Part shown: piece after piece, positions 8,055-57,993 of the stretch
Layout of the letters: each line of letters opens with the position of its first letter
Position numbering within the stretch: the first letter of the stretch is position 1
Source of the DNA: Naegleria gruberi
Taxonomy: Eukaryota
Length of the DNA: 64,000 nt
Direction: 5' to 3' (one strand)
Assembly: GCA_000004985.1 (NCBI GenBank)
Contig: GG738848.1
The notes under the pieces: generated by a model
The model's database searches: none
What the model was told of the DNA's origin: nothing
Seen by the model: the letters and a program-made list of their open reading frames with translations, nothing else
Made by a program: the position numbers and the translations under genes

Positions 8055-11000
8055 TTATTCCAAGTCAACTCTCATTTGTTTTGCAAAGTTAACCTTTAAA
8101 TCCTTCTGTTTCAAAAAGTCATCATATAATTGGGAAGTTATAAATCTTGAGAATGTATCTTCCATATTCAATTCAATCTGTGCTTGCAAATCATTGAAAC
8201 AATCAGCAATTTGCTTTCTCAATCCTCCCTCAGACGAATCCATCATTTCCAAATCCTTATTTTCAACATTCACTTGCTTGTACAAGAGTATGAATTTCTT
8301 TCTGGTCGTTGATGGCACATTCACTTCACAAACAGCATTCGAAACCATGAATAAATCATGAATATTTTTCAAAAAGTCTGAAATTCCATCCAAATATCTT
8401 CCACTTGTGAATAGTTCATTATTCAATAGATAGTCATAGAGATAAATATTTTCAGTTGAGAATTCTGATTGACAGAATTTTTCAAATACTTGACGTGCAT
8501 CTTGATCTTGCAAGAATATTGACAACTTGGAAATATTTCCAATCTTGTCCAAGTTGACCTTCTTTTGAATGTATAATTTGAGAAGGATGAGTAAGGAGAA
8601 ACCACCAAATACCAAAACATAACAGAATTGATACAAAACTTCCATAATAAATACAGCAACATCATATTTGAGTGCTGTATCATAAACAGTAGTTCCCTTA
8701 AATCTATATTCATTACTGGTCAACCCAAGAGATTGTTGAACAATTAGCAAGGCAAAGTAAACCAAATAAATAGCCATTTCAGTTCTAAAGAATAGTGGAG
8801 AATCTAATGAGAAAACTTGAACTCCAGCTCTGCTGACCTTTCCCTTAATATTCGAAATTCTAATTGTGGTCTTCTTTCTTAATGAATTCAAATCGGTTGA
8901 TCCCATCGATTCCAAATTTCTGAAACCTCCTCTACTTCTCTTTCTATAATAAGAAACTGAAATGTCAATAATTGCCACAAGTGAAATAATGATACTAAAA
9001 AGGAAGATAATGACAGTGTATGAAATGGACACAATATATGTATAGGTTTGTGCAGGAATGACATTGGTTCTCACTAAAATTACCCACAAAGTCCAATACA
9101 AAATATTCAAAATTGCAAATGAAATGATTATTGACATGAATACACGAGCAGATGTCAAAACCTTCAAAAATCTGAATCTTACTGAACCTTTCGGTTTGTG
9201 TGTTGAGATTTTTCCATATAAAAGTTTGAGTAATTCAAATCTCACAACTTGAATCACATAGGAAAGAATTGCTGTCAAATTCAAAGTGTTTACAATGATC
9301 ATTGTAACGTTACCAACAATATTCGCAGAATTTTGTTCTTCTTCCCAAATATTGGTATTTGTTTGGAATAAATAGTCAATTAGGACAGATCTCTGAACTA
9401 TGGAAATCAAAATACTTTCTGTCAGTAAAGCAATCATTCCCAAATAAGGTGTAATTAATCTGGACGAAACTGGTTGCTTATTTCTGAAAATAATCAACAT
9501 GACCAATACGAAACCAGAAAGTAATGTAAACACCACACCAAATGCAATCTCAGCATAGTACAGTTTGGAGATTTCCACAGCTTGTGCAATGGTTGGACTT
9601 GATTTGTCATTAGTTCCTGTAACATTAGTTTGTTTGTATTCGATAAATGTGGAAAATTTTGTTGTGTGATTGGAGCTACAGTTGACTTGATTAGCAGTCA
9701 ATCCAATGAATAACATTCCCTTAGTCTTCCAATTTTTACAGGTTTCGTCCCAAAATTTACAAACAATTTCAGTTTCGTTAGTAAACTTGGTAAATTCTTC
9801 TTTGGAAATTGCCAAATTAAGAACGATAGGATCTGCTAAATCAGAAAGTTTTGTCAAATTATAGTTTTGATAATATTTAAAATCAATAATTGAGGATGCT
9901 GTCTTGTTTCCATTAGCATCTACATTCTTGGCATAGGTGACAGATGACAATCCAATGACAGCATTTGTACCTCCAGTTGACTTGGCAATACTTGCAATAT
10001 TCAGTACAACACTACTGTTAAATCCACTTTCCAAAATATTTTTCACAACTGGAGTACTGACAGGTGTGGAATCTGGATTAGTCTGACTGGCAGATGTCTG
10101 AGAAGAATTGGATGGAGCTGTAGTGGTCTGTAACACAATCGTAGCAACAGTTGTGACAATTGCTGGACTTGAATATGTTTCACTTGGAATGGTAACTTGA
10201 GTTTCAGTAGTAGTTGCGGAGGTACTCGTGTTATTCTTATTCGAATCATCAGAAGATGTTGATCCAGTGGAGCTTAATACAGTTGGAACTTGTCCTTTCA
10301 TAACTAGAGTATTAAAAGTTGTCAATGTTTGCTCGACAGTTTCTTGAACAGTGACAGCTGGCGTGGAAGGTGAAGAACTTGAATCAGTTGTTGAAGTGTT
10401 AGTTGAGGTATTGTCTGTACTAATGATATTCGACAAAACTTGCAAAGTACTTGTCAAGACTTCGGTAGAAACCTTTGATTTAACATAACCATAAGTATTC
10501 AGCTCAACTGTGTAAGTGTCAACAACGTTTTCCATGTAAGTATCAACTTTCTTGGTGACTTCTGTTACAATCTCAGTGGTAACCTTCTCAGTTTCCTTAG
10601 TTAGAACATTCAAAGCTGAAAGAGCAGTTTCGGCATTTTCTTGACTAATCTCAATAGCAATGACTTTTTGTAAAATAACTTCTGGAGTAATCTCAATTGA
10701 CTGATCATACAAGAGAACATTCTTCAACTCGTAACATGTTGAATTCATTAAATCTGCAGTCGAATTAGGATAAGAAGTTACAATGACACTTCCAATTGAG
10801 TATTCTTGAAGATTTCCATTAACATCTTGGACAAATGCAATAATTGGAAGAGAATCGTTGGTTACGAATGGAAGCGGAAAGGTTATATCACTAACCGTCG
10901 TGAATTGTGTAATTCTAATAGATTTTTGTAAAGTAGGATGGAAGAAACCATAAGCAAACGAAAGTGGTTGTAATTGGAAATCAGCAATCCAACCACTTGA

Positions 11001-13797
11001 TGAAATATTGAATCTTGTGGCAATAGCAACACCTGTAGATGGTTCAATAGTGATGACATCTGGTATTTTAGGTAAACTCAAAACAGGAATCTCAATAAAT
11101 GTAAAGAAATTTTGTAAACCATTTCTGAAATTCAAATCAACCGTAATTTTTGTAATATCCAATGACTCTAAACTCACAACAGTGCTCAGTGACAATGGAG
11201 GTGACAATAAAATTCCAAATTGATTTCCATTTCCGTTCAACATTCCATTTGAAGATTTCAATAATTGAGTGCTTGATAAACTTCTCAATTTGATTGAGTA
11301 ACTATAACTGAATGAACAATCTTGATAGAGACAATTGAAATCTGAAACTTGAGAATAATCAGATAATGTAATATTGGAAATAATTGCTGATAATTGAACT
11401 TGTTTGGAGGTGTGTAGGTAATAAGTTGGTATTCCATAGGATTCTAGAGATTGAACTGCTCTGAATGTTTGGGAGGTAACCTGTACTACAAAGTCAAACA
11501 ATTGAGATTTGATGGAAGTGTCAATTGTTGTACCATAAAGTGTAAAATAATAGCTACCAGTATTGACATTTGAAAAGTCCAATGAGAAGGAATCAGTACT
11601 TTGGAATGTAGTTACCAACTCACAATTCAAACATATTAATGTAAACATTAAGTTTTGAATTGGATATTCTGTGGCAGTGACAGTAGCTGTCACAACTTGT
11701 GAATCACCCTTGACAATTAAGGTAGATGATAAGGCTGCTGAAACATGGTAGATTAAAATATTTTGACAAACTGAACCTCCGTAAATAGGAATACAAGAAC
11801 AAACATCAGGAGCTGAACATTGACCATGCCCAGAACAAACAACATCTGACACTGAGGAATTTCCATAACAATTGAAGGATTGACATACGTCTCCATAATA
11901 ACCAGCTTGACAGAAACATTTGGTAGATGTCAAGGCCAATCCACCATGTGTACATTGATTAGAGATAGTTTGAGGAACATCATCGCTCAGTAACATACTC
12001 AAACTAAACTGGAATGAAGTTTCTAATGATTCTGAATTGTAATCATAGAAAGAAAGCTTAAACTGATAAGCACCGGCAATATCATAACTATTAAAACTTC
12101 CTTCAAGTGAATATTTCGAATAATTGTAAAAGTTTCTATCAAAAAAATGTTCGAAAGAATTCACAGAGAAACTCTGCACAATAGAACTTGTGGAATTTGT
12201 GTAAATTAAACTGCTAATCTCAAAATGGCTCTCCAGATATAAATCAACATTGACTTTTAGATTGGAATCGAATGAAACTTGGAAATTATTTGGATAGACT
12301 GAGAAATCAAAGTTTTGATTGTCAACAGTCAAAGATTGTGAAATACTTTGAGTGATCATCCACAAGTTAACACTCACAGTCGCATTGTATATATAGTTAT
12401 AACACAAATCACCATGAAAATGACCATCTTGATCAACATATTGAGCTGACAGCGAAATGTCAAGTTTCCAATAATTTCCAAAGGTTGTCTTTCTCACTGA
12501 CGAACTTTCCAACAGTGTACTCAAAGGAATATAATTAGATGTATACGATTGTGTCAGCTCAGTGTCATTCTTTTCTAAAAGTGTCAATTTGATAGATTTC
12601 TCTTCATGATAATTCATACAACCTGTCAAATCATAACCAGAATCATCAGAAAAGAATAACTGATGAGTGTACACATCTGATCTTCCATAATAGGCAATAA
12701 ACTTAATACCACTTCCATCTGGTGAAATAATTCCAGTAATGTTCACATTAGGATAATAATCAATGTCCATAGTTGAGTTGGTTGAGTTATTGTTTGTGGA
12801 ATTATTGTCAATGATTTCTTCGTAGAGTTTGAAGAGTTCTCGTTTGTGAGTGGTACTTGGTTTGGAATGTTGTATTTCGTCTGAATCGTCCATGATAGTT
12901 TTCAATTTGTTATTCGAATCGACCATACGAAGAGAACCAGTTCGTGAAATGTAGAAAATTTCTTCTTCGCCCCAAACTGGAGAAACTCTCAACTTCATAA
13001 CATCTAGGAAGGCATGTTTAGCAAGAGTTTCGTCTGGCGATTCATCGTGATACTTGTTCAATCTCCCACCAATAATATCAAAAGTCAAATCTGGTTGAAT
13101 TCTCTTAATAAAAGTTCCATCAGAACAATAAATTATTCCATGTTTGATGTCAAATGTAAAATAACCAAAAGCTGTTTACAAAGTTCAGTAATAATACAAT
13201 TATTCGAAACTTACTTCCTTTCACATCACGAATAGTACCATCTTCAATCTTTCTAATCAAATTTGTTCTGTAATCGTAGAAATAAATGGTTTCACTCATT
13301 GCGTCTTGAGCCACATGTCCAGGTCGAATACATTCGTCATCATTAGTTTCGTCCTGACATTCATATTTGCTTCCAGCGAGAATGACTTTGTATCCTGAAA
13401 GTAAACGTTTCTTGATGTGATTTCCAGTCGAGTAAATAATTTCATCATATTCAGTCATAAAAAAACTCTGAATTGTTTCTACACTTTCCTCTACAAGAAT
13501 TGACGAATCTCCAAATAAACTAAGCGAACGAATTTGTGTCTTGTTGTGAAGATAAAGCACATGTTGATTCTCCCCGCTTCCATCCACCAACTCTGATATT
13601 TTACATGCCTCTCCACATTCAAATCTTGCAACAATATTGTTATCCTTTAGTTTACGAATTTCTTCTCTATTCGAAACCAATAATTGTCCTTCTTTAGAGA
13701 ATGTGAAGGTGGTGGCAGTTGACTCCACATGGCTGTGCACCAACAACACCAACAACCAAGAAAATACAACCAAGATGCTCAAACAATTGCTTGCCAT
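8055..13797 (-). CDS. Adhesion-GPCR-like receptor with C-terminal RGS domain (signal peptide, beta-propeller-like N-terminus, EGF-like Cys repeats, S/T-rich stalk, GPS motif, 7TM, RGS); 2 exons
   Basis: Exon 1 is 13215-13797, from ATG; N-terminus MASNCLSILVVFSWLLVLLVHSHVES is a signal peptide. A 43-nt GTAAGT…AG intron lies at 13172-13214 (phase 1). Exon 2 is 8055-13171. EGF-like CFCQAGYYGDVCQSFNCYGNSS…CSGHGQCSAPDVCSCIPIYGGSVCQ. GPS-like CKFWDETCKNWKTKGMLFIGLTANQVNCSSNHTTKFSTFIEY immediately before seven hydrophobic helices. C-terminal FEKFCQSEFSTENIYLYDYLLN…FSRFITSQLYDDFLKQK matches the RGS-box consensus. Confidence 0.75.
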
Positions 13798-15061: not shown

Positions 15062-18000
15062 ATGAAAGAACCCGTCCAAAAATTGTCGCAGCATCAGCAT
15101 AATTATCAAGCACTTTATCATCTTCGGATTAATCATATGAAATTCTTATTCACCCTTATTAAAATCATTATACTAGCAACAACAACAATAATATTATTGA
15201 GTAGTAGTAGTGACAGGTTCTTATTAGTGGTTCTCTCGAGTAGTACGAGTGGTATTATCAATATTTCGCCGAAAAATCCACAACTTGACTCGGTGCAGTG
15301 GAATGATGAGAGGGAAATTTGGTTTGCACAATCTTGTCCTCTTTCTGGATCGAATAAGAGGTGAGTATTTTCATCACCATCATTGATAATTAATTTTTAT
15401 ATATTATTGATCTGTTTCAACGCTTGCAAATGAACTGTTCACTTCCTTAATATATATTACAACATCATTAATAATTTTTAACTGCTTGCACACATGTATA
15501 TAAAAGATTGGGCATTGAAATGAGGGATGGAATATTGGCTGCCTTTCATGAAGCCAATTCAATAGGAGGCATTTGGGGCTCTAAGAAATTAAAACTATTA
15601 ACTTTTGATGATGCCTACGAACCAACCAATACTAAACAGAATACCGACTTTTTCCTATACAATATAACACCACCGAATACTTCCCTTAATTATGAATCCT
15701 ATTTTTCACAGAATTCCCAATACAGAGAACAGATGAAGAATGTGAAATTGTTTGGATTGTTGGGATTTGTGGGAACACCAACAACTCAGGCTGTATTTGG
15801 AGATGTCGTTTCGAATTCCTTTCCTTTGATTGGGCCTTTTACTGGGGTTGGTTGGCTGAGAACACCATTCTACCCGAATGTTATTAATGTGAGAGCTTCC
15901 TACGATGATGAAACAGCTGCTATGGTCGACTGGCTGATAAATGTCAAGCTCATTAGAAAGATTAGTGTCATGTATCAAGCTGATAGTTTCGGTCAAGCTG
16001 GTTTGAATGGAATTAAACGAGCTTTGGTCGATTATCTCAAAATACCAATTCGCTCCATAGGTAGCTATCCAAGAAACACTCTTCAAGTAGAAGATGCATT
16101 TGCTGAAATTGGTAAAGGTTCACCTTCAGCAATAGTTTGCATTGGAACTTATGCTCCTCTGGCTAAATATATCAAAATGGTAAAGAACATGGCATTTGCA
16201 ACGAATGGAAATAATAATGGATATGAAAATGCTCAGGAAATAATCATCCTGACTGTTAGTTTTGTTGGTTCTTCTGCTTTGGTAAGTGAATTGCAGTCAA
16301 GCGCCCCAATTTCAAACAAGTTTGGCTCAAGTTATTATACAGACAATGTGGTCATTACACAAGTGGTTCCTTCACCATTTAATTTGAGTTATCCTATTGT
16401 GAGATCCTATCAAAAGGCAAGAAAATCATACATACTTTCGAATAATCCTTCGGCTAATCTTTCAGATTTTGTTCCCTCTTTCATAGAACTGGAAGGATAC
16501 ATTGTAGGAAGATTTGTAAACAGTGTGCTACAGAAAATGTCTGGAAATTTGACCAGATCAAACTTTTTAGCGACTTCCTATTTTGGAGGAAGTAGAGCTG
16601 ATGTTACAATTGCAGATTCTTCAATAGGAGATGCATCTGGAGGGGTTTTCAATTTTGATGGAATGCAATTGGGACCTTATAGATGGTGTGACTCAGTCAA
16701 TCTGATCGATATGAATTTACCTTATTCTAATGGTTTCGTATTACCAAGTCAAACTTCGGCCAGCAATAGCAGCGCATGTTCTTCTTTCAATTGTAATCAA
16801 GGAATGAAAGTTGTGTACAAGAGCTCTATCGACATCAAAAACTCCTCAGTTTCCTTTTCTGTATTTGGTGATTTATTTTCTTGGTATAATTACAAATCTG
16901 GAAGCTATTGCATTTCAGATCCAGTTCTTGTAAAGAAACCTCTTTTATTTGGCCAATCAATTAATACAGCATCAGGTGATTTCACTGAAGAACTCATGTT
17001 AAGAAAAGGAATTCTGGCTGCATTCGCTCTTCACAATCAAGGATTGACGTCAAATCAACAAAAATTAGAACTCTTAACAATGTATCATTCAGGAACAAGT
17101 GAAATGTTGAAGAATACGAAGGAATTTGTAGAGATTCATCATGCTCTTGGATTATTAGGATATTCTTCAACTAATTTGAATGTTGACATGTTGTCGAAAG
17201 CAATGACAGACAATTCATCTCAACTGAATGGTATTGCATTGGTGGGAACTGCTTCTACTATTAATTCGATGGATTTCAGATCAAGTTTCTTCCAAAATAT
17301 TATTCACGTTCATAGTTCCATTTTAGAACAATTAGGAACTATTGTGGATTACTCAATTAACACTCTAGGTAGAACAAGAATATCCATTGTTTATAGTAGG
17401 AATCAAGATTCGATGGCAGCTTATTCGATTCTTAACGAAATATTGTCAAGTTTAGATTTAAAACTTGATTCAGAATCGTGTATTCAAAACGAAACTTTTA
17501 TTTCAACTGATACAATCATCAGCGATCTATCTTTGAATGGAGCTAATCCTCAAATCATCATCTTTGCATTCCCTTCAAATGTAAATAATATTGGATCAAT
17601 CATTTCTTCCATTCAACAAACTTTTTCAACAGAACCAAAGTTTAGAAATGAATTGACCATATTTATGATCAATTCATTCTTTAAAGAAAATGTAGAGGTT
17701 GAAATATTACCTTGGATTTCATCTCCCAAGTTGGATAATGTCAAACTAATGTACGTGTCACATGTTCCATCCATAAATGGAACAGCTCACATTTCCATTG
17801 AAAAGTTTAAGGCAGCTATGGAGCTCTACTCTCCAGATCTTTCAAATTTATACAATACCAAAGTGTTGGAAGGTTTCTTTATAGGAAGTTTCATCAGTAC
17901 AATTATGGAAAATCTTGGAAATGAACCAACAAGTCAAAATTTAATCGAAACTATTTATAAGGTAAAGACATTTATCAATTTCCAGACTACTTTTGGTGCA

Positions 18001-20532
18001 TTTTCAGAGTCTTCCACAAGTCCATGTAATTTGGGAATGAGAATGAGTTATATTTATGGGCTTTCGAATAGTGGAGTTTCAGAGATTGCCACGAGAGATC
18101 ATTCTTCAAATTGTGGACTACACAGCTATGTTTCAACAAGAACTTCTGTCATTCACAGTAAGATAGATAGACCAATCTTACTTGGAAGATTAATTCCATA
18201 CAAAAAGGATGAAAATTCATTGCAAAATAAGATTGAATTGCTGAGTGAAGTTTCGACAATTGACATGGATGATTATGCCAGAGGATTGACTACCTATCTA
18301 AGTTATTTATCCTCAAAACAGTCTTACCAAAGTGTCAAGACCAAGAAAATCCACTTACTCACCGAGTATTACAGTTTAACCTCAAGTGGCAAAACTTTTT
18401 CGGACAAGTTGACAGCTCTCATCCAAAAGAATAAGATTTTCGCTCTCGTTGGTTCCATCATTAAATTCGACGAATCTACACTTAGCACTAATGACAAAAT
18501 AGATCAAATCTCCAAAATCCTTTCGAATAACAATATTCCACTCATTGATTCTCTGACAGGAAGTATTCGAATGAGGAAACCTTTTTCACAAATGTTTGTA
18601 AACATTGGTCCTTCGTTGTTGGATCAAGGAATTGCTTTTATTAATTATGCAAAGAGTAGATTTGGTCAAATTGCAATTGTTTATCAAGATTCAGAGTATT
18701 GGAAAGGAGCTTTGGATGAGATTGTAAACTTTTGTAGAATTGAATCGATTACAATAGGTCAATTGAGAGCTATAGATATTTTCAAGTCAATATCAGATCA
18801 AACAGATCATTTTGAGTCATTTTTGAAGGAGAAGGAAGATGTGGCTATATTTATTTTGGCAAATGACGTTCATTCAGCTGAAATTGTTAAATTGACATCT
18901 GTCACACACAAGGCAAATAGTTTTACTAATAATATCTTGTTTGGAATTCCTGTAGAGTCTGCTACCATTGATTTTGAAAGTGCAGTGATGAGCTGTTCCT
19001 CCCTTAGAAATGAAACATCTCCCTTGATTAGTAGTTTCGTTTCTGGTAAATCAGATTCTGAACTAATGTCAATTGTCAGCTCTTACATTTCATCAAACAA
19101 GTTATTAATTACCAAATCCATGTATTCACCCAACTACATCTCCCAAACTCATGATCAATACTCATTTTCCACAAGATTTTACACTCAATTTGCTGAATTT
19201 TCAAATTACCCAAAAGCAAATTATTTCACATTCGAAGGATACGTGATGGGTTACTTTATAGACATGATGATGGGTAGTATCTATCAATCTCAAGGTATAT
19301 CTGATCAAATATCTGATATTGCCTCTCAAGATTTATTAGACGCAATTTATTCAAATTCAGTTTTTGATATAATCTTTAAAAAGATTGGTCCTATGGGATA
19401 TACATGTTCTAACAATACAGAGGCAAGATCTACATGTGAAGATTCTTCCACTTTGGTTGTTGGTTGTGGGTGCAATCAGGGAGCCAAAGCGGTCTATTTG
19501 TCTGGATTGGCCAATTTCACACTTTCTTATAATCAAACTAATCTCAATTTCTTTGACATTTCTGATTATTCCCTGACTTTCAGAACATGTGGAGTTGAAG
19601 CTGTCGTTCCTTCCTTGTCCATCATTGCCATTATTTTCATTGTCATTGGTTCCTTACTCGCTGTATTTATCCTAATCCTTTCTCCAATTCTGAGCTATCG
19701 TTATTACATCTCCAAAAAGGCAATTAAGCATGCACCAACTTCCAAGAATGGTAAATTAGCTTGCTGTTTCACTGATGTCCAAAACTCTACCGTTTTGTGG
19801 CAATCCAATGAAAAGGCAATGAGAGAAGCTTTAGTCATTCACAATCAAATAATGAGACGAAACTTGGAATTATGCAATGGATTTGAAGTCAAGACCAATG
19901 GTGATAGTTTCTTTGTAGTTTTCAAAGATCCAGTCGATGCACTTGATTGGTGTGTCTCTGTCCAACATGATTTACTACATGCCAAATGGCCAGCTGATTT
20001 ATATAGTATGTGGGATTGTAGACCTGAATGGGATGAAGAAAGTAGACGAATGATGTGGTCAGGGGTGAGAGTTAGAATGGGATTACACTATGCACAGGCT
20101 GATTATGTCTTTGATAAGGTCATGAAGAGACCTGATTATTTTGGAACTTGTGTGAATACTTCTGCCAGAGTGGAGGCAATGGCCCATGGTGGACAGATTT
20201 TAGTGACTGAGGAATTCTTTTTGGAAACATGGAGGATTATGAAGACATATTTGTATTCGAATGTAAAGTTTCAGGAGCAGAATTATTATGGCTATGTCCA
20301 CGATATAACTTTGGCCATGTCGAATCCGTTATTGAGCCAAACTGCTTCCTTTACGCAAGATTCAAGTTTCAATAATACGAATAATACGAATAATACTTCA
20401 ATGGTTTCTGGAACTCAGAGTTCTTCGAGTGGAAACACTTCAAAAACTCCAAAGAGTACAGATGTTTCCAGAAAGTTAAATCTGAACGCTGCTTCTAAAC
20501 GAAAGAGACCTAAACATGCTGAGATGATTTAG
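15062..20532 (+). CDS. Receptor-type adenylate cyclase: signal peptide, large periplasmic-binding-protein-like extracellular domain, single TM, class III nucleotidyl cyclase domain; 2 exons
   Basis: Exon 1 runs to 15360. In-frame ATGs at 15062 (MKEPVQ…) and 15137 (MKFLFTLIKIIILATTTIILLSSSS, signal-peptide-like). Donor aag ag|gtgagt at 15361, acceptor …ataaaag| at about 15506 (phase 2; junction uncertain by ±1 nt). Exon 2 runs to the stop at 20530-20532. TM region is AVVPSLSIIAIIFIVIGSLLAVFILILSPIL. The cyclase domain KLACCFTDVQNSTVLWQ…EVKTNGDSFFVVF…GVRVRMGLHYAQADYVFD…YFGTCVNTSARVEAMAHGGQILVTEEF matches class III cyclase motifs (metal-binding D, transition-state N/R). Same architecture as trypanosomatid receptor ACs. 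Confidence 0.8.
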
Positions 20533-25318: not shown

Positions 25319-27421
25319 CTATTGAGACAGAGTTATCATTTGAAAATCTCTTAATTGTGAACTGGTTGGTCTTTGAGATGGATCCTTCTTTAACATGGAA
25401 AGCACGAATTGAATGAGTGATTCTGAATATGGAATGGATTGTCGTTTGATTTGAGAGTAGAGTTGAGAGAGGACTTGATCTTCATGTTCTGAGAGGAGGT
25501 GGGTGGCTATTATGTATTGGAGTGAATCATTGGTCATGAGTTGGTAAAATGAAACACCGAGAGAGAAAATGTCAGATGGCATTCCATAATTTTCATTTGA
25601 AAGACATTCAGGAGACATGAATGCAACTGTTCCCTTTACAGAATTGTTTTCATTACTAATTTCCTTAGCCTCTCCATAATCTCCAATAACTAGCTCTATA
25701 CTATCGATGAAAGGATCGAAGCTGTCAACAAAAATGTTCTTTGGTTTCAAATCTCTGCATTTCCAATATTATTTTTCAGTTTAGGATAAGAATATTAATA
25801 TATTTTCAAATGAATTATACTAAACCTACCTATGGAGAACATTCCTATTAATGTGAAGATATGACAAACCATCTCCAATTTGATTAATTACACTAATCAT
25901 GAGTTTCTCCGAGAATATTCCATTAATTTTCAAACACTTGTCCAAATCTCCCTTATAATATTTCATTACCAAACAAAGAGCATTATTGAGCCTCTTGGAA
26001 ACAAACAACTCATAAACTTCAACCAATCTAGGATGTTTGAATGAGAGAGTCTTTGAACATTCATCAATTGCCTTTTCCATTTCATTATCCGAAACTCGAA
26101 TGCACTTGATGGCAACCAATCGATTAGAGCTCTTGGTATCCTTACACAGGAAACAATCTCCAAACGATCCCGATCCAATCTTTTCCAAAACTTCATATCT
26201 ATTCTTTAACAAATTATTATTCACATCATCGGTGGAACTTGTTGAGGTCACAGATTGTTGATTAAATGAATTTGTAGTTGTGGTGGTATTAGAATTGTTA
26301 GTTCTTAAAGTATGATATGTATCAATCGAGGAATGAGTTTCAATTTCGTGGTCTGAGAATATGACTGGATTATGCATGTTGAGTGAGACAGATTTTTGAG
26401 TATTTGCATTGGACGAAACTGTATTCGAGTTCAATAATTCGTGGTGATGTTCCTCCAAATGAGGAGATTCCTTCTCTTTCTTTTTGCAACTTTTCACAAC
26501 ACAGCAACCAATTAATGAACCAACTGACAGCACAATAATAAAACAAATAATTGAACCCAAAACTATGGCCACAATGATAATTATCTGTGTAATATCTAAG
26601 GATGAGGCGGAATAAGCTTCAATATTGTAAACTATTGGACATGTGTAATCATTGCAATGAATTCTCACATAGAATGGAACATAATTTGATGAGGTTATGT
26701 ACAAATCTGGAACATTAATTGGAAAATACGTATAGGGAGGAGAAGGTTGAACATTTGAAGAACTTTTCACAAACGAAACTCCATCAAACGAAAGAGAAAC
26801 TGCTACCGAAACTGATGTTTTTCCTATTGCTGCAGTTTTCAGTCTCACAGTTGACTTTCCATTAGTGAGACAGGTTTTACAGACCAATTCCTCTGCATCA
26901 TTCATGGACATGGTGAGAGTTGTGCTTTGAGAAGAAAGTTTGACTTCGTGCCAGAATTTTTCCACAACAAAATATTGAATTCGAATAGTTTCGCTACTCG
27001 ATGGATTAAACAAGACGAAATAAGATTCCAATCCTGTATATAATCTGAATTGGGATACCGATGCTGAGGTTGCATTACTAGCCAAAATCTTGAATGTCTG
27101 ATGATACTTGTCAACTTGTAATTGAGGATAGAGAGTTACTGGAATAACACCCATCACTAATTTACCAGTTGCTTGGTATTCCAAACGGAAATATCCATAC
27201 TGATAACTTGTATTATAATTCACAAATTGCAAAGGACCCAATTCATAGTCAATGATAATGTCATTCAGCTCTGTGTTCATTCCGCATGTCAATTTACAAG
27301 ACATCAAGAGCACTATCAATACCATAACTATCCATCTGATGGAAAATACATCAAAAACTCTGCAGATGAAACTGCCTTGCAATCTTCTTGTCTCGTTTGA
27401 TAACAGTTCTGGTTGCGACAT
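25319..27421 (-). CDS. Single-pass receptor-like Ser/Thr protein kinase (signal/anchor, ~250-aa ectodomain, TM, kinase domain); 2 exons
   Basis: ATG at 27421. TM is IIIIVAIVLGSIICFIIVLSVGSLIGCCVV. Kinase subdomains: GSGSFGDCFLCKD…AIK (Gly loop and VAIK). The catalytic loop HR|DLKPKNIF is split by a 76-nt GTAGGT…AG intron (25753-25828, phase 2). DYGEAK stands for DFG, then SPE and the C-lobe. Confidence 0.8.
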
Positions 27422-40388: not shown

Positions 40389-41708
40389 ATGCCGAAGAAG
40401 ACTAAAAAAGAAATTAAAGACGAACGATTAAAATCAGCACTTGCTGATGAAGATTCTGATTCCTACGATGAACAAAGTGATGTTTCTACATCAACCATGG
40501 CTCGTCATGCCACAATGGAACAACTTGCAACAGAATTATCGGAAGGAATTGAAAACCTCACAGAAAAGGCTGCTGCTAAACGTTTGGAAGGCTTGACTAC
40601 TATTTGCAAAATTATGAAATTACGTTATATTATTGAAATTCTAGGTGGACAATTAGAATCTTTAATTAATGGTGCTATTCAATGTTGTGCTAAATCTACA
40701 TCAGCAGAAGAAACAATTTTAGCTTTTAATTTATTTACTCTTATTTCTACAACTATTGGAGGATGTTCATCTGCCAATGACCAAAGAAACTTGTTTGGTT
40801 CCAAGTCTTTGAATACTAGTAAATCAGCCAGTGTAATCCTCACTGAAGATAATAGCTTGAGAATGAAGGAAGTATTAACAAGACATGCTGATGCTGCTAC
40901 AAAGAAAAAGTCCGAAGTTAGATGTGAAGCATTATTCTCCTTGTCAGTATTGGAATTTATGGATTGTTCTCCAGAAGATTTGATTTTGGAAAAGGAAAAT
41001 AACAAGTTGGATGTTTTTAAACAATATTGGAATGACCAAGATGAACAAGTTGCTTCAACAGCTATTGAAGGATGGTCTTTGCTTGCTACAATGATTCCGA
41101 ATAAGTATAAGGTTTCAATTCTTGTTCCATCATCATTGAAACTTTTATCTAGTATTATTGCTTCTGAAACTAAAAGTTCTAGTGAAAAGATTGCTGCAGG
41201 TCAAGCTGTTGCTCTCTTATTTGATGCTATTAATAATATGGAAGATAGTTCAATTGCTCAAGTAGAATATGATAATTTGGTGACAGCCATGAATAAGGTT
41301 GCTTCCATCTCTACTAAATCTGTCTCAAAGAAGGAAAGAGCAACACAAAGAATGAATTTCCGTAACTTTGTTAATACTGTTGAAGATGGTGATTGTCCAG
41401 TTGAAGAAATGAACGTTTCTGGTAATGTTCTCTTGTTTGAAAATTGGGATCGTTTGGTTCAACTTGTCAATTTTAAGAGAGTATTGGAAGGAGGAATTTT
41501 GGAACATTTCAAATTTAATTCAAATCTACAACTTGCATTTGGAGTTGATGGCATGGATCTCAGTGTTGAAAAACAAGCTTCCAAGCTCGATTCCATGCAA
41601 AAGAAATTCTATCTTTCAAAGAATTCTGACTTTAACAAGAATGATACCCTTGAAAAGAATAAGCTCACTAGGCAATTTTCAAATTATGTACAAACTGAAG
41701 AAGATTAA
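40389..41708 (+). CDS. IFRD/Tis7 (interferon-related developmental regulator) family protein
   Basis: ATG at 40389 (MPKKTKKEIKDERLKSALADEDSDSYDEQSD…). Blocks parallel human IFRD1: AAAKRLEGLTTICKIM ~ AKTRQAALEGIKNAL; IAAGQAVALLFDAI ~ RIAAGESLALLFELA; ATQRMNFRNFVNTVEDGDCPVEEMNVSGNVLLFENW ~ RKQRSVFRDVLRAVEERDFPTETIKFGPERMYIDCW. Confidence 0.65.
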   Translation: MPKKTKKEIKDERLKSALADEDSDSYDEQSDVSTSTMARHATMEQLATELSEGIENLTEKAAAKRLEGLTTICKIMKLRYIIEILGGQLESLINGAIQCCAKSTSAEETILAFNLFTLISTTIGGCSSANDQRNLFGSKSLNTSKSASVILTEDNSLRMKEVLTRHADAATKKKSEVRCEALFSLSVLEFMDCSPEDLILEKENNKLDVFKQYWNDQDEQVASTAIEGWSLLATMIPNKYKVSILVPSSLKLLSSIIASETKSSSEKIAAGQAVALLFDAINNMEDSSIAQVEYDNLVTAMNKVASISTKSVSKKERATQRMNFRNFVNTVEDGDCPVEEMNVSGNVLLFENWDRLVQLVNFKRVLEGGILEHFKFNSNLQLAFGVDGMDLSVEKQASKLDSMQKKFYLSKNSDFNKNDTLEKNKLTRQFSNYVQTEED

Positions 41709-41821: not shown

Positions 41822-43078
41822 CTATTTATTCAAAATTTTCAAATCAGAAGTGGATTCATTCTCATCAGGTAAATGTTTAGCCAATTCGTGCATGGCTGCA
41901 ACTTCATTAAAAGTCACGGAAGAAAGTGAAGATTCATCAATACTAGCAACACGGTGATTTTCCTTCTCATTTTCAATGGTGGCTGGGATAACTCCTTTCG
42001 ATTCAAGATCTGAATATTTGAATGAACCTCTCTTGAAATGAGTATAATAATAGTATTGACTCAGTATTAAACAATCGAGGAAGATATTAATGGTCGATTC
42101 AGTCAACCAAGGAAGACGACCAAGAAGATAATTTGGTTGAACACTGTAGAGCCAAATAGAGGTCAAATAACACATGTTACCAAATATTCCAATGCTGAAA
42201 TAGGTTGGCGACAAGCCGTCGGTTGACTTTCTGGAGAAATTCCAATAAATTTGAGGCAATCTACTGCCAACATACATGATTGCACAAATACAACCAATTG
42301 TATAGCCAATGATACCTTGAACAGTGTTTGGAGGGAAAACGAAATCTTCCTTTTCTTCCTCTACTTCTTGAATGGTCAAGAGTTTTCTGGAATGTTTGGA
42401 AGGTTGACTAAATGGGCTAGTATTTACATTTTGGAAGGAAATTATTAACAAGGTACCCAGTAAGAGTATAATAAATAATGAAACTACTTTGGATGATTGT
42501 AATTGTGTGGATTTCAATTCAACATCTTCAAAATCATCCATCTGACTCGATGTCACATTTGACAAATTTAAACTCGACGAACTAATTGGTGAAATTTCAA
42601 TGGATTTCTTATCCTCAACTTGTTCTTCCTTCTTCTCAACCTTCCTTCCTCTAATCTTTTGCAACCAAACCACATAGTACAAGTATTGGAAAACCAAAAT
42701 GAAATCCATCGAAACAAAATACGAAGCCAACAAAATTTGAGTAATCAATTGACCACTCAATACACACGCAAGCAAATTACTAGCATCTCCCATCACATTC
42801 TGAGCCAAGAATCCAGCAGATAGTGAACTAGCATCTCTATTCTTGAAATTTGCAATAATTTGTGGAAAGAGAGCACACATCCACAAGGCAATCGAAACTA
42901 AACCCACATAGAAAGAAGCTTGTTCCAAAGGTGAATGAACACACTCTCCAAAGACATTATAAATCCAAGGAACCATCTCATTTCCAAGAGCATCAAAGGC
43001 AGAACACAACTCGCTGCTACTCGTTGCAGTTCCATTATTAAATAATGTCTGATTCGTCGTCATATTATTGAACAACAT
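41822..43078 (-). CDS. PQ-loop repeat membrane transporter (PQLC2/Ypq/cystinosin-like lysosomal amino-acid exporter family)
   Basis: First ATG at 43078 (MLFNNMTTNQ…). Two PQ-loop motifs, FPQIIANFKNRDASSLSAGF and SRLPQIYWNFSRKSTDGLSPTYF, each lie within clusters of hydrophobic helices. A long S-rich linker separates them. Confidence 0.7.
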   Translation of the reverse strand: MLFNNMTTNQTLFNNGTATSSSELCSAFDALGNEMVPWIYNVFGECVHSPLEQASFYVGLVSIALWMCALFPQIIANFKNRDASSLSAGFLAQNVMGDASNLLACVLSGQLITQILLASYFVSMDFILVFQYLYYVVWLQKIRGRKVEKKEEQVEDKKSIEISPISSSSLNLSNVTSSQMDDFEDVELKSTQLQSSKVVSLFIILLLGTLLIISFQNVNTSPFSQPSKHSRKLLTIQEVEEEKEDFVFPPNTVQGIIGYTIGCICAIMYVGSRLPQIYWNFSRKSTDGLSPTYFSIGIFGNMCYLTSIWLYSVQPNYLLGRLPWLTESTINIFLDCLILSQYYYYTHFKRGSFKYSDLESKGVIPATIENEKENHRVASIDESSLSSVTFNEVAAMHELAKHLPDENESTSDLKILNK

Positions 43079-44276
43079 TTTACATAAAATTCTATATTGA
43101 GAAACTAATCTAACTAAATGGTACAACAAAATCAATTAAGAAACATGAGGCATGCTACAATTCTATATACTTGTAGTATTATTAGCACATTCAAACTCTG
43201 CACAAAATATGGTGTTGTTTTTTTTTAAGATTTTTTATCTTTGGTGCCAAATTTACTTCTTTAAATAGCTGCAACAATAAGAAGATAAAATTTCGAGTGC
43301 GTACTTTTGAGGTCCACACACGCACCCTCTTAAATTGATTGAATTTAAAGGCGTTCCAACCAACATTAATATAACATTCAAACCCAATACCCCTTAAATG
43401 ATGCACCTGACTATTAATAACCCGACGATATCGGACAAATTTAATCCACAACCAATTAAGTGTGTGTGGAAAGTTAGAGGAGTGGCGAATATGGAGTGGA
43501 AAATTCCCTAGAGTGGCTCCATGGAATGCATTAAGGAAGTGGCGATGAAAAAGACTGGTTTTGGTTGGAAGGAGCTATTCACAGCGAGAATTTGGGTGAA
43601 TTTTCGATAAATTGTAATAGTTTAAAGAAAATATTTTAAAGGAATATTCGAAAAGTGGAAGGTTGATGGGGACTTGGAATGATGCTTGCACAAATGAGAT
43701 GAGGATAAAATTGTGTTAAAATTGTGAGTGAGGTCCACACTTGAGGGAAATTATTGAAAATTCTATTAGAAACTTCAAATTTACCAAAAAATCTCAGCTT
43801 TCTCTGTACAAGATTGTTCAATGTAAATTGATTAGTTTCACATTAATTTAATTTCCATTATTTATTTTCAACATTATTGAGAGTTTCTCTTTCAATTCTC
43901 CCAACAATAAATTATCAAATTCACCAAGAATGTTCACCATCTGAAAATATGTTAGTAAATTTGTATTATTATTAAATAACAATAAAGTTTCCTTAATTTT
44001 TTAATAAAGTATTTTTAATAATTATTTAAAAAAAATGGCGCCACTACTTACCTTAATATTTACGATTTCAATTTCAGAATAATTGATCATCACGATGACG
44101 AACACCACAAATTCCCACTTTACCGTAATCTTTAAATATTACTAATTATTATTCCAAAATTATTACAACTGATTGCTTCCGAAGCCTATTATTTAACGAA
44201 TACGATCAAACTTCACTTCCATTGTGTTATTATTACAGCAAACAGTCGAACAACAAACACAACCAAGAGAAAAAAA

Positions 44277-46292: not shown

Positions 46293-49200
46293 TTAATTAA
46301 AGGTTGTTTCCAGATTTTGATTATCAGCAGCAATCAAATCAGTTTGCAATTCGTCTGATTCTGCTCCATGTTTCAAAAATTCATCCAGGACATATTGTTG
46401 CTCAGCTTTGGAAATGTTAGATTTAGCATGATGCTTGGCACTCAAAAAGTAGCTTTGGGTTGGTTTTCCTTTAATCTCAATCTTCCTCTCCTCAAATTCA
46501 AAATCCAAATCATACACTCTCTCATAAGTTGATCTTGATAAATGAATCCTTCCAGGTTGAGAATTTGATTCCATTCTGGATCCAACATTAATAGTTTCCT
46601 AGAATGACATGTTTAAATATCAACAATACAGTATTGAAATACTTACACCCCACAAATCATATGCAAATTTCTTGGTGCTATTATTTGTTAATATTTAAAT
46701 TTCTAGAAACACTTACCCAATCACTCCAGCAATTGCAGCTCCAGTATTGATACCCACACGAATATCTACTTGATTAAAGTCAGAACTGGAAAAGGTATTT
46801 GCTTGAACTAATTCTTTCATTTTGGAAAGATTGAATTCTCTAATGACACTAAAAGTTTCAATACTAAATCTGAGTACTCTTTCTGGGTGATCACTAGCTT
46901 GCATCTATTAAATTATTATTAGAATTAAAAGAAGAAATGAATTATATACATACCAATCCTCCAACACAGAAATATCTAAATATTCAAATCCATAGAATTA
47001 ATGTCATAAACTAGAGTCTCGAATTTACTTACGCATCTCCAATAGTTTTAATCTTTTCCAATTCATACTTGTCAGTCAATTTATCGAATCCTGTAACAAT
47101 TGTACTCAACATTTGAACAACATCATTGGCACTAAGTGAGCTAGATAATTTAGTAAATCCAACCATGTCACTGAAAAAGCAAGTGATATCAGGCAACTTG
47201 TCAGCAATTAATTTCTCTCCCTAAAATAGATTAGATATTGATAAATATAAATAAATGTAATACTTACACTTTTCAATTGTCTGGCAACAGATTCTGGTAA
47301 CACGTTTCTCAGTAACTTTTCAGAATTCTTCTTCTCTTCAGCTAATAATGATTTTGACTTGTTTTCAGATGTGATATCTCTTATGAAACAGGTAATGACT
47401 CTGTTATTATCGAATAGAGTGTAGGAAATGCTCACTCTAGCTGGGAAAGTAGTCCCGTTCTTTCTTATACATTCCAAATCTAAAGTTTCTCCCTGAATGG
47501 CATTCTTTTCTGAGGCTAGTGAAGAATCTACTTGAACTCTATTTTCAATCAACTTTTTAATTGTTTCCTCACAATTTGGATTGAAGAGAGACCACAATGG
47601 TTTTCCAATTACATCCTCAGGCAATTTACCAAACATTCTTTGGGCTGCAGGATTGTAAACTTCAATATCATAATCATTACATGATACTGCTCCATCTACA
47701 GCAGAATTAAGAATGGACTTGACCTTTAAATCTTCAACCTCCTTCTTATTGAGACTGTTCGCGCCTCTAGAGGAGGAAAATATCTTGTGGTATAGAACAT
47801 AATTTCTCATTTCATCCTTTGCTTCCAAATGATCAATCTTGATATAGTTCAGCAACATTCTCACAGTTTGAACCTCATTAACATGTTTGTCAAAGGAGAG
47901 GACAAGTAAATAGCCAAACAGTGGAACTAAAAAAAATCCAATAACTCCAAATATTGTTACAATAGTAGAACTGTTATCTCTTTCTATGGAACTAACGTAA
48001 ATATTCATAAATTGTTCGAATTCCTTTGCCAACACTTTACAATCAGTGAAAAGTGCATGGAACTCTGGGAATATACTGTACATGTCCTTGTTCTTAGCAT
48101 TGTGCTTTTCATTGATAATAATTGATTCCAGATAGAGTTCATTCATCTTATCATTCAAGCTTGTACACTTCATGGTAGTCGAATTTGAATTTTCACAGTG
48201 AGCTCCCTTGATGAGATTGTCAACCTCAGAAAATAACCCAATTAGTGGCGCAGCATTGGTTGTAATATCGCCATACAATAGCAAATTCCACTCCTTACTA
48301 ATCTTCTTCTTGATTTCATAAACTGATTCATGATATTCAACAACTTCATCCATTGAAAGTAATTTCTTAGAGTTGATTGAATATGTATCGTACGGAAGAA
48401 CAGAAAATATTAAAACCTCTCCAACTTTCCCTGTAATATCATGAGCATCTACTGAGATTGATGCAGAACGTTCCACATTTCTCATAATTCTCTCAGTTTT
48501 ATCAGAGGTAACAAAAACTTCATAAAAGAACATGGAAAAACACAAACAAGTAGTAATGAAAATAAGAGTTGTAAATAACGATGCTCTAAACTTGGGATTG
48601 TTGGTAAAGTTGGATTTGTATGCTCCCTCTCCATTCTCTGCATATTTCGTAGCCATTTGGTGGTAGATCTTTCCAAGAGCATCTTTAGGAATTGTCTTTT
48701 CAACGAGTTTTAACACGGATTTCAAAGATCTCATTATCAACAAGTTGAATATCAACATTAGACCACAAGATATTACTAGTAATCCCAAAGAGCAGAAATA
48801 AAAGTACATGAAAGCATTATTGGTATTACTGACAGTGGCATAGGATCTATCTACAATGTTTGAGCAAAACTCTTTGAATACTGAACTGAAAATATCTCTA
48901 TTGTGCCAAAAATACATGGCTTTGTAATTGGAGAGAGTATTGTTATACTGCTGAGGTGTATAGGTATTGATTTCCTTTAAAAATTGTATCAAAGTGTTGG
49001 TGATTGCTGAAATGGAAGTGTTAAATTGATGTGCAACAGTGTATTCTCCTGGGTATGGACCAATAACAGGATTATAGAAAAGGACACTACTCTCTGAATA
49101 ATCATGAAACATGTCATCACTCATTAAGTCATTCAGAGCGCTGTTTTGAAGCTCCTGTAATGAAGCTAATACATCTCGAATTCTTTCTTTGTGCTCAGTT

Positions 49201-57610: not shown

Positions 57611-57993
57611 TTATAATAGTAATTTCGGATTAGTTTTTATAATATAGTATTCAACAATTTCATTTCAATTTTCTGTATATACAACCTCATTGTATAACAC
57701 AACATTACCCATTGTGTGGGGAGCATATCGAACGATTCGATATCAAGAACTCTTGTGTCAATAAAAAATATTTAATTAATAATGAATTGCTCTCTCTCGC
57801 TCGCTCAAATGCTCAAGAAGTAACATCCTCGCACTTTCTCACTCGAAAATTTCAATTGAATCAAATTATTCTTATTATTGAATTATTCCAAAATATTTGT
57901 TTGAATCAATTTCATAGTATTTGTTTGTTTGGTCAAGACTTTATGTTCTCGCAAAAAGTAGAACTCCATCAATTTACTTCTTTAAAACTTTTG

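What the first reader, a model, noticed from the sequence alone, without database searches (positions are those of the whole stretch)
8055..13797. Adhesion-GPCR-like receptor with its own C-terminal RGS domain
One ~1,900-aa protein carries a signal peptide, EGF-like Cys modules, and a GPS autoproteolysis-like motif (CKFWDETCKNWKTKG…CSSNHTTKFSTFIEY) next to a 7TM bundle. These are hallmarks of metazoan adhesion GPCRs. It then ends in an RGS box, an arrangement known from plant AtRGS1-type 7TM-RGS proteins. Combining the adhesion-GPCR ectodomain and GPS with an intramolecular GAP is unusual. It suggests a self-terminating receptor.
Basis: partly seen in the sequence, partly recalled or inferred. 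Interest (0 to 1): 0.7.

Follow-up and report, generated by a model that had tools for sequence, protein, structure and literature searches.

The report
Naegleria GAIN–7TM receptor with RGS tail
This is a real Naegleria gruberi gene for a large surface receptor whose outside resembles animal adhesion receptors and polycystin-1 and whose inside ends in a G-protein "off-switch" domain, but the same protein family was already described in the related amoeba N. fowleri in 2022.

Summary
A two-exon gene on the minus strand (8055-13797, 43-nt intron at 13172-13214) encodes a 1,899-aa protein. It is identical to an annotated Naegleria gruberi "predicted protein".

At least 75 cluster representatives share GPS-7TM-RGS. 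Every named one is from Naegleria or Willaertia. H, the Thr nucleophile, the Stachel-like Phe residues and the RGS contact residues are essentially invariant. The window protein alone has lost both cysteines of one GPS disulfide.

Bosch et al. 2022 described this architecture in N. fowleri and showed that paralogous RGS boxes are GAPs for Gα subunits, some of them self-activating. The likeliest function is therefore a cue-regulated receptor-GAP. A "self-terminating GPCR" is less likely but not excluded.

Verdict: new member of a known kind, modest interest.

The parts
8055..13797 (-). Complete CDS including the stop codon; 1,899 aa. Identical to the annotated N. gruberi predicted protein P0001.
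13215..13797 (-). Exon 1: 583 nt, residues 1-194 plus the first base of codon 195.
13172..13214 (-). Intron of 43 nt, GTAAGT...ACAG. If retained, the reading frame stops at 13150.
   Evidence: the splice agrees with the public protein
8055..13171 (-). Exon 2, running from the N-terminal ectodomain to the stop codon.
13720..13797 (-). Putative signal peptide, residues 1-26 (MASNCLSILVVFSWLLVLLVHSHVES).
   Evidence: hydropathy peak of 2.34; inferred, no predictor was run
11973..13719 (-). N-terminal ectodomain region, residues 27-594 (the span includes the intron). It is unassigned and not shared with paralogs. Only very weak matches to NHL-propeller regions of paralogs.
   Evidence: no Pfam hit at E<=10
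11721..11972 (-). EGF-like Cys-rich modules, residues 595-678 (10 Cys within residues 590-680).
   Evidence: sub-threshold Pfam EGF hits; phmmer to paralog EGF arrays with E down to 1.7e-11
10797..11390 (-). REJ domain, residues 789-986.
   Evidence: Pfam PF02010, 27.5 bits against a cut-off of 25, E 1.5e-6, when residues 680-1000 are scanned alone; paralogs reach 54.8 bits and E 2.9e-31
9630..10760 (-). GAIN domain, residues ~999-1375. A helical subdomain A is followed by a beta-sandwich subdomain B with 14 strands and 2 short helices.
10035..10457 (-). Ser/Thr-rich, low-complexity (mucin-like) stretch, residues ~1100-1240. It includes low-confidence insertions within the GAIN region.
   Evidence: sequence; pLDDT <50 segments
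9651..9764 (-). GPS motif, residues 1331-1368.
   Evidence: Pfam PF01825, 24.2-28.3 bits against a cut-off of 22.5
9660..9668 (-). Putative autoproteolysis triad H1363-T1364|T1365 (the H-X-S/T motif).
   Evidence: H and T(+1) are 75/75 across the family; motif definition from PMC13062082
9636..9662 (-). Stachel-like last GAIN beta-strand, TKFSTFIEY (residues 1365-1373).
   Evidence: F1367 75/75 and F1370 73/75; it forms the last strand before TM1 in the model
8589..9563 (-). Seven-helix transmembrane bundle, residues 1398-1722. GPCR fold, unclassified family.
8115..8516 (-). RGS box, residues 1747-1880, cytoplasmic C-terminus.
   Evidence: Pfam PF00615, 36.5 bits against a cut-off of 23.9; Foldseek RGS1/4/8/16 with TM-score ~0.7; conserved contact residues

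Best explanation
The gene encodes a member of the heterolobosean (Naegleria/Willaertia) family of GAIN-7TM-RGS surface proteins.

Layout. The large glycosylatable ectodomain (unassigned N-terminal region, EGF-like modules, REJ, GAIN) faces outward. A GPCR-fold seven-helix bundle spans the membrane. The C-terminal RGS box faces the cytoplasm.

Most likely mode of action: a receptor-type GTPase-activating protein. The RGS box accelerates GTP hydrolysis on one or more of the many Naegleria Gα subunits, some of which self-activate, and so holds them off. A cue acting on the ectodomain would be relayed through the GAIN/Stachel-like strand and the 7TM bundle, or through removal of the protein from the membrane. 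The cue could be adhesion, force or a ligand. The relay would change GAP access and so release or sharpen G-protein signalling.

Shown here: the gene model, the domain architecture, the GAIN and RGS folds (predicted), the topology, the family membership, and the conservation of catalytic and contact residues.
Shown by others, for N. fowleri paralogs only: GAP activity and binding selective for the transition-state form of Gα.
Inferred: GPS autoproteolysis, tethered-agonist function, regulation of the GAP by the ectodomain, and the identity of the Gα partner.
For: - Architecture and topology.
- Secondary structure (about 7 helices, then 14 strands plus 2 short helices) fits the published GAIN description of 6 helices plus 13 strands plus 2 small helices.
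- Cleavage determinants named by Pohl et al. 2026 are all present: H-X-T; the aromatic residue before the first Trp (F1334; Y or F in 74/75); and the Gly of the Gly-Cys motif (G1346, 75/75).
- RGS box: the counterparts of RGS4 E87/N88 (E1768/N1769), N128 (N1812) and D163/R167 (D1866/R1870) are kept here and in 72-75 of 75 relatives. The mapping to RGS4 numbering rests on my own knowledge of the RGS4-Giα1 structure.
- Family: 91 hits at E<1e-30, and 75 cluster representatives with CxCxH[T/A]T.F, about 7 TM helices and an RGS box. All named members are N. gruberi, N. fowleri, N. lovaniensis or Willaertia magna.
- Biochemistry on paralogs: RGS boxes of Nf 7TM RGS2-4 are GAPs for Nf Gα2/3/5/7, including the self-activating Gα5 and Gα7. 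On Gα2 and Gα3 the switch-I G-to-S 'RGS-insensitivity' mutation abolishes GAP activity (PMC9283941).
Against: - No experiment exists on this protein or on any full-length family member. [quoted passage not shown]
- The window protein alone (1 of 75) lacks both cysteines of the disulfide equivalent to CL1 C820-C834: M1347 and S1361. This could impair GPS geometry and cleavage.
- The residue at -1 is Thr, not the Leu of metazoan HL|T. Its effect is unknown.
- The 7TM bundle has strongly conserved cytoplasmic-face residues: S1431/R1432/P1436, R1505, Y1513, D1597 and L1654-x-F-R-x-E. These could equally be a G-protein coupling (GEF) surface.
- The structural evidence rests on an AlphaFold model with moderate confidence (pLDDT 77.6, pTM 0.56).
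Confidence: 0.6

Rival explanations
1. Self-terminating GPCR. The 7TM bundle is a true exchange factor, activated by the tethered Stachel-like peptide after the ectodomain is shed. The RGS box in cis shortens the lifetime of the Gα-GTP it has just produced, giving brief, spatially confined pulses.
Against: No sequence relationship to any GPCR family with proven GEF activity. The best-studied 7TM-RGS protein (AtRGS1) and the N. fowleri data are interpreted as receptor-GAPs acting on self-activating Gα. Nothing here measures exchange activity.
Confidence: 0.2
2. Constitutive membrane-anchored GAP and adhesin. The GAIN/GPS is an uncleaved structural stalk, and the 7TM bundle merely anchors and positions the RGS box. 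The ectodomain acts in adhesion or substrate recognition without allosteric control of the GAP.
For: This paralog has lost one of the two GPS disulfides. Many human adhesion GPCRs with an H-X-S/T motif are not cleaved. In most eukaryotic lineages RGS is found fused to at least one TM domain, as a simple membrane tether (PMC3971589).
Against: Near-absolute conservation across 75 relatives of the catalytic His, the Thr nucleophile, the aromatic and Gly determinants, and the Stachel-like Phe residues argues for selection on cleavage or strand function. Conserved residues inside and at the faces of the 7TM bundle are more than an anchor would need.
Confidence: 0.15
3. Annotation artefact: the RGS box, or the ectodomain, belongs to a neighbouring gene and the fusion is a gene-model error.
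For: Several N. gruberi paralog models are visibly truncated. P0003 starts inside the Stachel strand, and P0006 ends after TM2.
Against: A single uninterrupted ORF of 1,677 codons (8055-13088) runs from the ectodomain through GPS and 7TM to the end of the RGS box. The same order is found in 75 independent relatives from several species.
Confidence: 0.02

Closest known systems
Naegleria fowleri '7TM RGS' protein family (Bosch, Jeck & Siderovski 2022, J Biol Chem; PMC9283941)
   Same: Same family by sequence: N. fowleri and N. lovaniensis members hit at E 1e-66 to 1e-280. Same layout: EGF/lectin-type ectodomain, GPS, 7TM, C-terminal RGS. RGS contact residues are conserved.
   Different: This is the N. 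gruberi member and is untested experimentally. It has lost the C820-C834-type GPS disulfide, unlike all 74 other representatives. The paper does not mention a GAIN fold or a REJ domain (0 occurrences).
Metazoan adhesion GPCRs (class B2; e.g. ADGRL1/3, ADGRB3, ADGRE5/CD97, ADGRG6)
   Different: The 7TM bundle is not detectably a 7tm_2 member. The C-terminus carries an RGS box, which no metazoan 7TM receptor has (PMC3971589). A REJ domain precedes the GAIN. The residue at -1 is Thr rather than Leu.
Arabidopsis AtRGS1 and other 7TM-RGS proteins (plants, Trichomonas, stramenopiles, chytrids, filastereans, ichthyosporeans)
   Same: Seven TM helices followed by a cytoplasmic RGS box. A proposed receptor-GAP that restrains self-activating Gα.
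   Different: AtRGS1 is not known to have a GAIN/GPS or a large ectodomain (my own knowledge). Homology between the two 7TM bundles was not tested here. All named relatives of this 7TM type were Naegleria or Willaertia.
Polycystin-1 / PKDREJ / sea-urchin REJ proteins
   Same: A REJ domain directly followed by a GAIN/GPS next to the membrane. One paralog also has a PKD domain.
   Different: Polycystin-1 has 11 TM helices with a PLAT domain and a TRP-like channel half. This protein has 7 TM helices of GPCR fold, no PLAT or PKD_channel hit, and an RGS box.

Membership tests
Heterolobosean GAIN/GPS-7TM-RGS family (N. fowleri '7TM RGS' type) | Significant full-module sequence homology (GPS + 7TM + RGS) to family members | tested here: met
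   N. fowleri P0004 at E 1.6e-68, N. lovaniensis P0005 at 3.3e-66; 91 proteins at E<1e-30, most matching profile positions 1-600 in one or two stretches.
Heterolobosean GAIN/GPS-7TM-RGS family (N. fowleri '7TM RGS' type) | Seven TM helices with N-out/C-in topology and a C-terminal RGS box above the Pfam threshold | tested here: met
   (K+R 28 inside, 4 outside). RGS 36.5 bits against a cut-off of 23.9.
Heterolobosean GAIN/GPS-7TM-RGS family (N. fowleri '7TM RGS' type) | GAP activity of the RGS box on Naegleria Gα | not testable with these tools
   Only the residue conservation could be checked (E1768, N1769, N1812, D1866, R1870). Activity has been shown only for N. fowleri paralogs.
Adhesion GPCR (class B2) | GAIN domain containing the GPS, directly N-terminal to TM1 | tested here: met
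   Pfam GPS above threshold. The AF2 model matches GAIN crystal and cryo-EM structures. 33 residues lie between T1365 and TM1.
Adhesion GPCR (class B2) | 7TM domain of the secretin/adhesion family (Pfam 7tm_2) | tested here: not met
Adhesion GPCR (class B2) | Catalytic H-X-S/T plus the aromatic and Gly determinants for autoproteolysis | tested here: met
   H1363-T1364-T1365, F1334 and G1346 are present and 74-75/75 conserved in the family. One of the two GPS disulfides is missing in this protein.
Adhesion GPCR (class B2) | Actual autoproteolysis and tethered-agonist activation | not testable with these tools
   Needs protein expression and mutagenesis.
AtRGS1-type 7TM-RGS | 7TM followed by a C-terminal RGS box | tested here: met
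AtRGS1-type 7TM-RGS | Homology of the 7TM bundle to that of AtRGS1 | not tested
Polycystin-1 / PKDREJ family | REJ domain followed by GAIN/GPS | tested here: met
   REJ 27.5 bits against a cut-off of 25 on fragment 680-1000. GAIN as above.
Polycystin-1 / PKDREJ family | PLAT domain and an 11-TM region with a PKD/TRP-like channel half | tested here: not met
   No PLAT or PKD_channel Pfam hit. There are seven TM helices of GPCR fold.

The most novel reading that the evidence does not exclude
The GAIN/Stachel module is a portable, pre-metazoan mechanosensory switch. In Heterolobosea it is coupled to a 7TM lineage unrelated, or only very remotely related, to class B2, and it drives the opposite biochemical output. 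Exposure or movement of the tethered strand (T1365-KFSTFIEY) would gate an intramolecular RGS GAP rather than a GEF. This would be an 'inverse adhesion GPCR' built on a polycystin-like REJ-GAIN stalk.
Probability: 0.25. Interest if true: 0.7.

Novelty: new member of a known kind. Interest (0 to 1): 0.3.

Why it matters
The architecture itself is published, so this gene adds a member, not a concept. The family is still almost unexplored, and three features make it a useful test case.

1. It has a complete GAIN fold with invariant cleavage and Stachel-like residues.
2. That GAIN sits on a REJ stalk like polycystin-1.
3. It is attached to a GPCR-fold bundle of no known class and to a GAP output.

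It could therefore show whether tethered-agonist signalling is separable from class B2 helices and how old it is. It could also show how receptor-GAPs are regulated in organisms with self-activating Gα, which include the lethal pathogen N. fowleri.

The window protein is a natural variant lacking one GPS disulfide. It would serve as a ready-made comparison for cleavage studies.

Tried and rejected
1. Word-indexed homology searches found only 2-4 relatives, because low-complexity words saturated the 8,000-candidate limit. This held for the full protein, the C-terminal 652 aa and a 5-sequence profile. The exhaustive HMMER search was needed.
2. The first AlphaFold run with a 5-sequence alignment was unusable (pLDDT 52.4). 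I did not base any fold claim on it.
3. An alignment of 77 full-length relatives crashed the aligner. A 31-sequence set worked.
4. The whole-protein Pfam scan missed the REJ domain. Scanning residues 680-1000 alone recovered it.
6. The AFDB Foldseek library was not installed. Structural comparison with AtRGS1, and a structure-based survey outside Heterolobosea, could not be done.
7. The exact-sequence contig lookup for the protein returned nothing.
8. The N-terminal 27-594 region stays unassigned. It has no Pfam hit and only marginal matches to NHL-propeller regions of paralogs (E 9e-4 to >1).
9. A gene-fusion artefact was considered and rejected, because of the single 1,677-codon ORF and the 75 relatives with the same domain order.
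10. A literature search for 'GAIN domain' together with Naegleria found no paper. A search combining Naegleria with REJ, polycystin or GPS-domain terms found nothing relevant.


Full report
**1. What is in the sequence**

The window is AT-rich (about 30-36% G+C). Between 8055 and 13797 the minus strand carries two long ORFs, 13150-13797 and 8055-13088.

- Reading the DNA shows a GT at 13214 and an AG at 13172.
- Removing these 43 nt joins the ORFs into a 5,700-nt CDS with one terminal stop, encoding 1,899 aa.
- An in-frame TAA lies five codons upstream of the ATG at 13797.
- The spliced protein is 100% identical over its whole length to an NCBI/UniRef 'predicted protein [Naegleria gruberi]'.

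No transcript data could be consulted.

**2. Domain content**

Pfam on the whole protein:
- RGS at 1747-1880: 36.5 bits, cut-off 23.9.
- GPS at 1331-1368: 24.2 bits, cut-off 22.5.
- Only sub-threshold EGF hits at 595-678.

The EGF-like stretch aligns repeatedly to the EGF arrays of paralogs (E down to 1.7e-11). Those arrays score 160-186 bits for EGF_2.

Scanning residues 680-1000 on their own revealed a REJ domain at 789-986 (27.5 bits, cut-off 25, E 1.5e-6). The whole-protein scan had missed it. Paralogs confirm it: P0033 scores 54.8 bits, P0016 scores 28.4 bits, and the best in the family reaches E 2.9e-31.

Residues 27-594 match no Pfam family and are not shared with paralogs. Marginal matches fall on NHL-propeller regions of paralogs. 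A degenerate beta-propeller is possible but unproven.

**3. Membrane topology**

- Hydropathy gives a hydrophobic leader (1-26) and seven peaks between 1398 and 1731.
- The cytoplasmic loops and tail hold 28 Lys+Arg, against 4 in the extracellular loops.
- N-glycosylation sequons are four times denser in the ectodomain than in the tail.

The ectodomain is therefore outside and the RGS box inside.

**4. Structure**

A first AlphaFold run with five sequences was too poor to use (pLDDT 52). With 31 relatives, the model of residues 985-1899 reached pLDDT 77.6 and pTM 0.56. It shows:
- a helical bundle (model residues 15-170);
- then 14 strands with two short helices (174-391);
- then seven long helices;
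- then an all-helical C-terminal domain.

The published GAIN description is six helices plus 13 strands and two small helices (PMC3321182).

GAIN domain matches:
- Foldseek against the PDB puts GAIN domains first: BAI3 at E 2.6e-7, inactive holo-CD97 at 3.4e-7 over 758 columns, then ADGRL3 and CELSR1.

RGS domain: RGS1/4/8/16 match the tail with target TM-scores near 0.7 and 22-26% identity.

It is a GPCR-fold bundle of unassigned class, and adhesion-class membership is not met.

**5. The family**

An exhaustive profile search (GPS+7TM+RGS) of 1.84 billion representatives gave 884 hits at E<=1e-3 and 91 at E<=1e-30. Seventy-five representatives carry C-x-C-x-H-[T/A]-T-x-F followed by about seven TM helices and an RGS box.

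Every named member examined is from N. gruberi, N. fowleri, N. lovaniensis or Willaertia magna. The rest are unnamed environmental contigs. N. gruberi has several paralogs, including NAEGRDRAFT_57455, 79129, 80461 and 71475.

Ectodomains are shuffled among members. They include EGF arrays, NHL propellers, RCC1-like propellers, B-lectin, PKD and REJ. The stalk (EGF/REJ/GAIN) is shared. Shorter 7TM-RGS proteins without GPS share the TM6-TM7-RGS region.

**6. Conservation that bears on mechanism** (75 sequences)

GPS and cleaved strand:

| Position | Conservation |
|---|---|
| C1332 | 74/75 |
| Aromatic at 1334 | Y 64, F 10 |
| W1342, G1346, C1359, H1363, T1365, F1367 | 75/75 each |
| T1364 | 72/75 |
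| F1370 | 73/75 |

Pohl et al. 2026 name four requirements for GAIN cleavage competence: H-X-S/T, an aromatic residue stacking on the His, the Gly of a Gly-Cys motif, and suitable flanking flaps (PMC13062082). The first three are present here.

The strand after the scissile bond reads T-x-F-[S/A]-[A/T]-F-[I/L/V]-[E/Q]-[Y/F]. This has the same spacing of hydrophobic residues as the metazoan Stachel. The metazoan consensus is recalled from my own knowledge.

Positions 1347 and 1361 are Cys in 74/75 sequences. Only the window protein has Met (ATG) and Ser (TCC). These positions correspond to CL1 C820 and C834, which form one of the two conserved GPS disulfides. The paired loss fits a real GAIN geometry. 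It also makes this paralog a natural one-disulfide variant, and whether it still cleaves is unknown.

RGS box: E1764, E1768, N1769 and N1812 are 75/75. D1866 and R1870 are 72-73/75. They align with the RGS motifs SEEN, EVN and DSxxR. By my knowledge of the RGS4-Giα1 complex, these are the Gα-contact residues.

**7. What is already known**

Bosch, Jeck and Siderovski (2022; PMC9283941) reported the following for N. fowleri:
- 28 '7TM RGS' proteins, 'a number' of them with GPS motifs and EGF or lectin ectodomains 'reminiscent of the adhesion GPCRs'.
- Isolated RGS boxes of three of them are GAPs for Gα2, 3, 5 and 7. Gα5 and Gα7 exchange nucleotide faster than they hydrolyse it.
- Binding is selective for the AlF4 form. 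On Gα2 and Gα3 the switch-I G-to-S mutation abolishes GAP activity.
- They state that receptor function and regulation by cues remain to be determined.

De Mendoza et al. 2014 note 7TM-RGS architectures in many bikonts and some opisthokonts, but not in metazoans. Araç et al. 2012 found GAIN domains in Dictyostelium and Tetrahymena. I found no paper that mentions a GAIN fold or a REJ domain in Naegleria.

**8. Interpretation**

The best-supported reading is a receptor-type GAP of the heterolobosean GAIN-7TM-RGS family. An adhesive or mechanosensory ectodomain sits on a REJ-GAIN stalk. A GPCR-fold bundle spans the membrane. A cytoplasmic RGS box turns off Gα subunits.

The extracellular input presumably acts through the GAIN/Stachel-like strand and the bundle, or through internalisation as in AtRGS1, to modulate GAP access.

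Conserved cytoplasmic-face residues could be a coupling surface. It has no positive evidence, however. A purely structural stalk with a constitutive GAP is a further rival. A gene-model artefact is essentially excluded.

**9. Verdict**

- GAIN and RGS: yes.
- Adhesion-class 7TM: no.
- 'Unusual': no, because the family was published for the sister species.

Novelty: new member of a known kind. Interest is modest at 0.3. It comes mainly from the unexplored possibility that a GAIN/Stachel switch controls a GAP on a non-class-B helix bundle.

Noticed in passing
window 15508-20532 (+): A 1,674-codon ORF lies next to the 7TM-RGS gene and is transcribed divergently from it. It has Peripla_BP_6 and ANF_receptor ligand-binding domains, a TM segment and a Guanylate_cyc catalytic domain, so it is a receptor-type nucleotide cyclase.
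   Followed up: partly
window 47208-51668 (-): A 1,486-codon ORF has many TM helices, TmcB-type TPR repeats and a PAS domain. Its last residues (LLRNVLPESVARQLK) look like the start of a cyclase catalytic domain cut by an intron.
   Followed up: no
window 9672-9674 and 9714-9716 (-), residues S1361 and M1347: Both cysteines of one GPS disulfide (the CL1 C820-C834 equivalent) are replaced in this protein only, out of 75 family representatives. It is a coordinated loss of a disulfide pair.
   Followed up: yes
window 9660-9671 (-), residues N1362-H-T-T1365: The residue before the scissile bond is Thr in 72/75 family members, not the Leu of metazoan HL|T. In 32/75 members, including this one, N-H-T forms an N-glycosylation sequon on the cleavage site. 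The reason is unexplained.
   Followed up: partly
window 10035-10457 (-), residues ~1100-1240: A long Ser/Thr-rich, mucin-like, low-confidence stretch lies within the region that otherwise folds as a GAIN domain.
   Followed up: no
paralogs P0036 (ENA contig) and P0002 (EukProt): Some family members carry RCC1-like beta-propeller repeats in what should be the extracellular N-terminal region. This is an unusual location for a domain best known from intracellular proteins.
   Followed up: no
N. gruberi paralogs P0003 (523 aa) and P0006 (1,125 aa): The public gene models look truncated. P0003 begins inside the Stachel-like strand (MFSTFIEH...). P0006 stops after TM2. Both are probably annotation errors rather than real short proteins.
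   Followed up: no
metagenome proteins P0114 and P0142 (JGI/IMG): These are TM-RGS relatives without a GPS motif. Their source names them 'pimeloyl-ACP methyl ester carboxylesterase', which hints at a fused alpha/beta-hydrolase domain.
   Followed up: no
window 57712-59544 (+), 40389-41708 (+), 41822-43135 (-), 25826-27421 (-): Other ORFs with clear Pfam domains: BTB_2, IFRD, PQ-loop, and a protein-kinase exon. They are ordinary eukaryotic genes with no evident link to the finding.
   Followed up: partly
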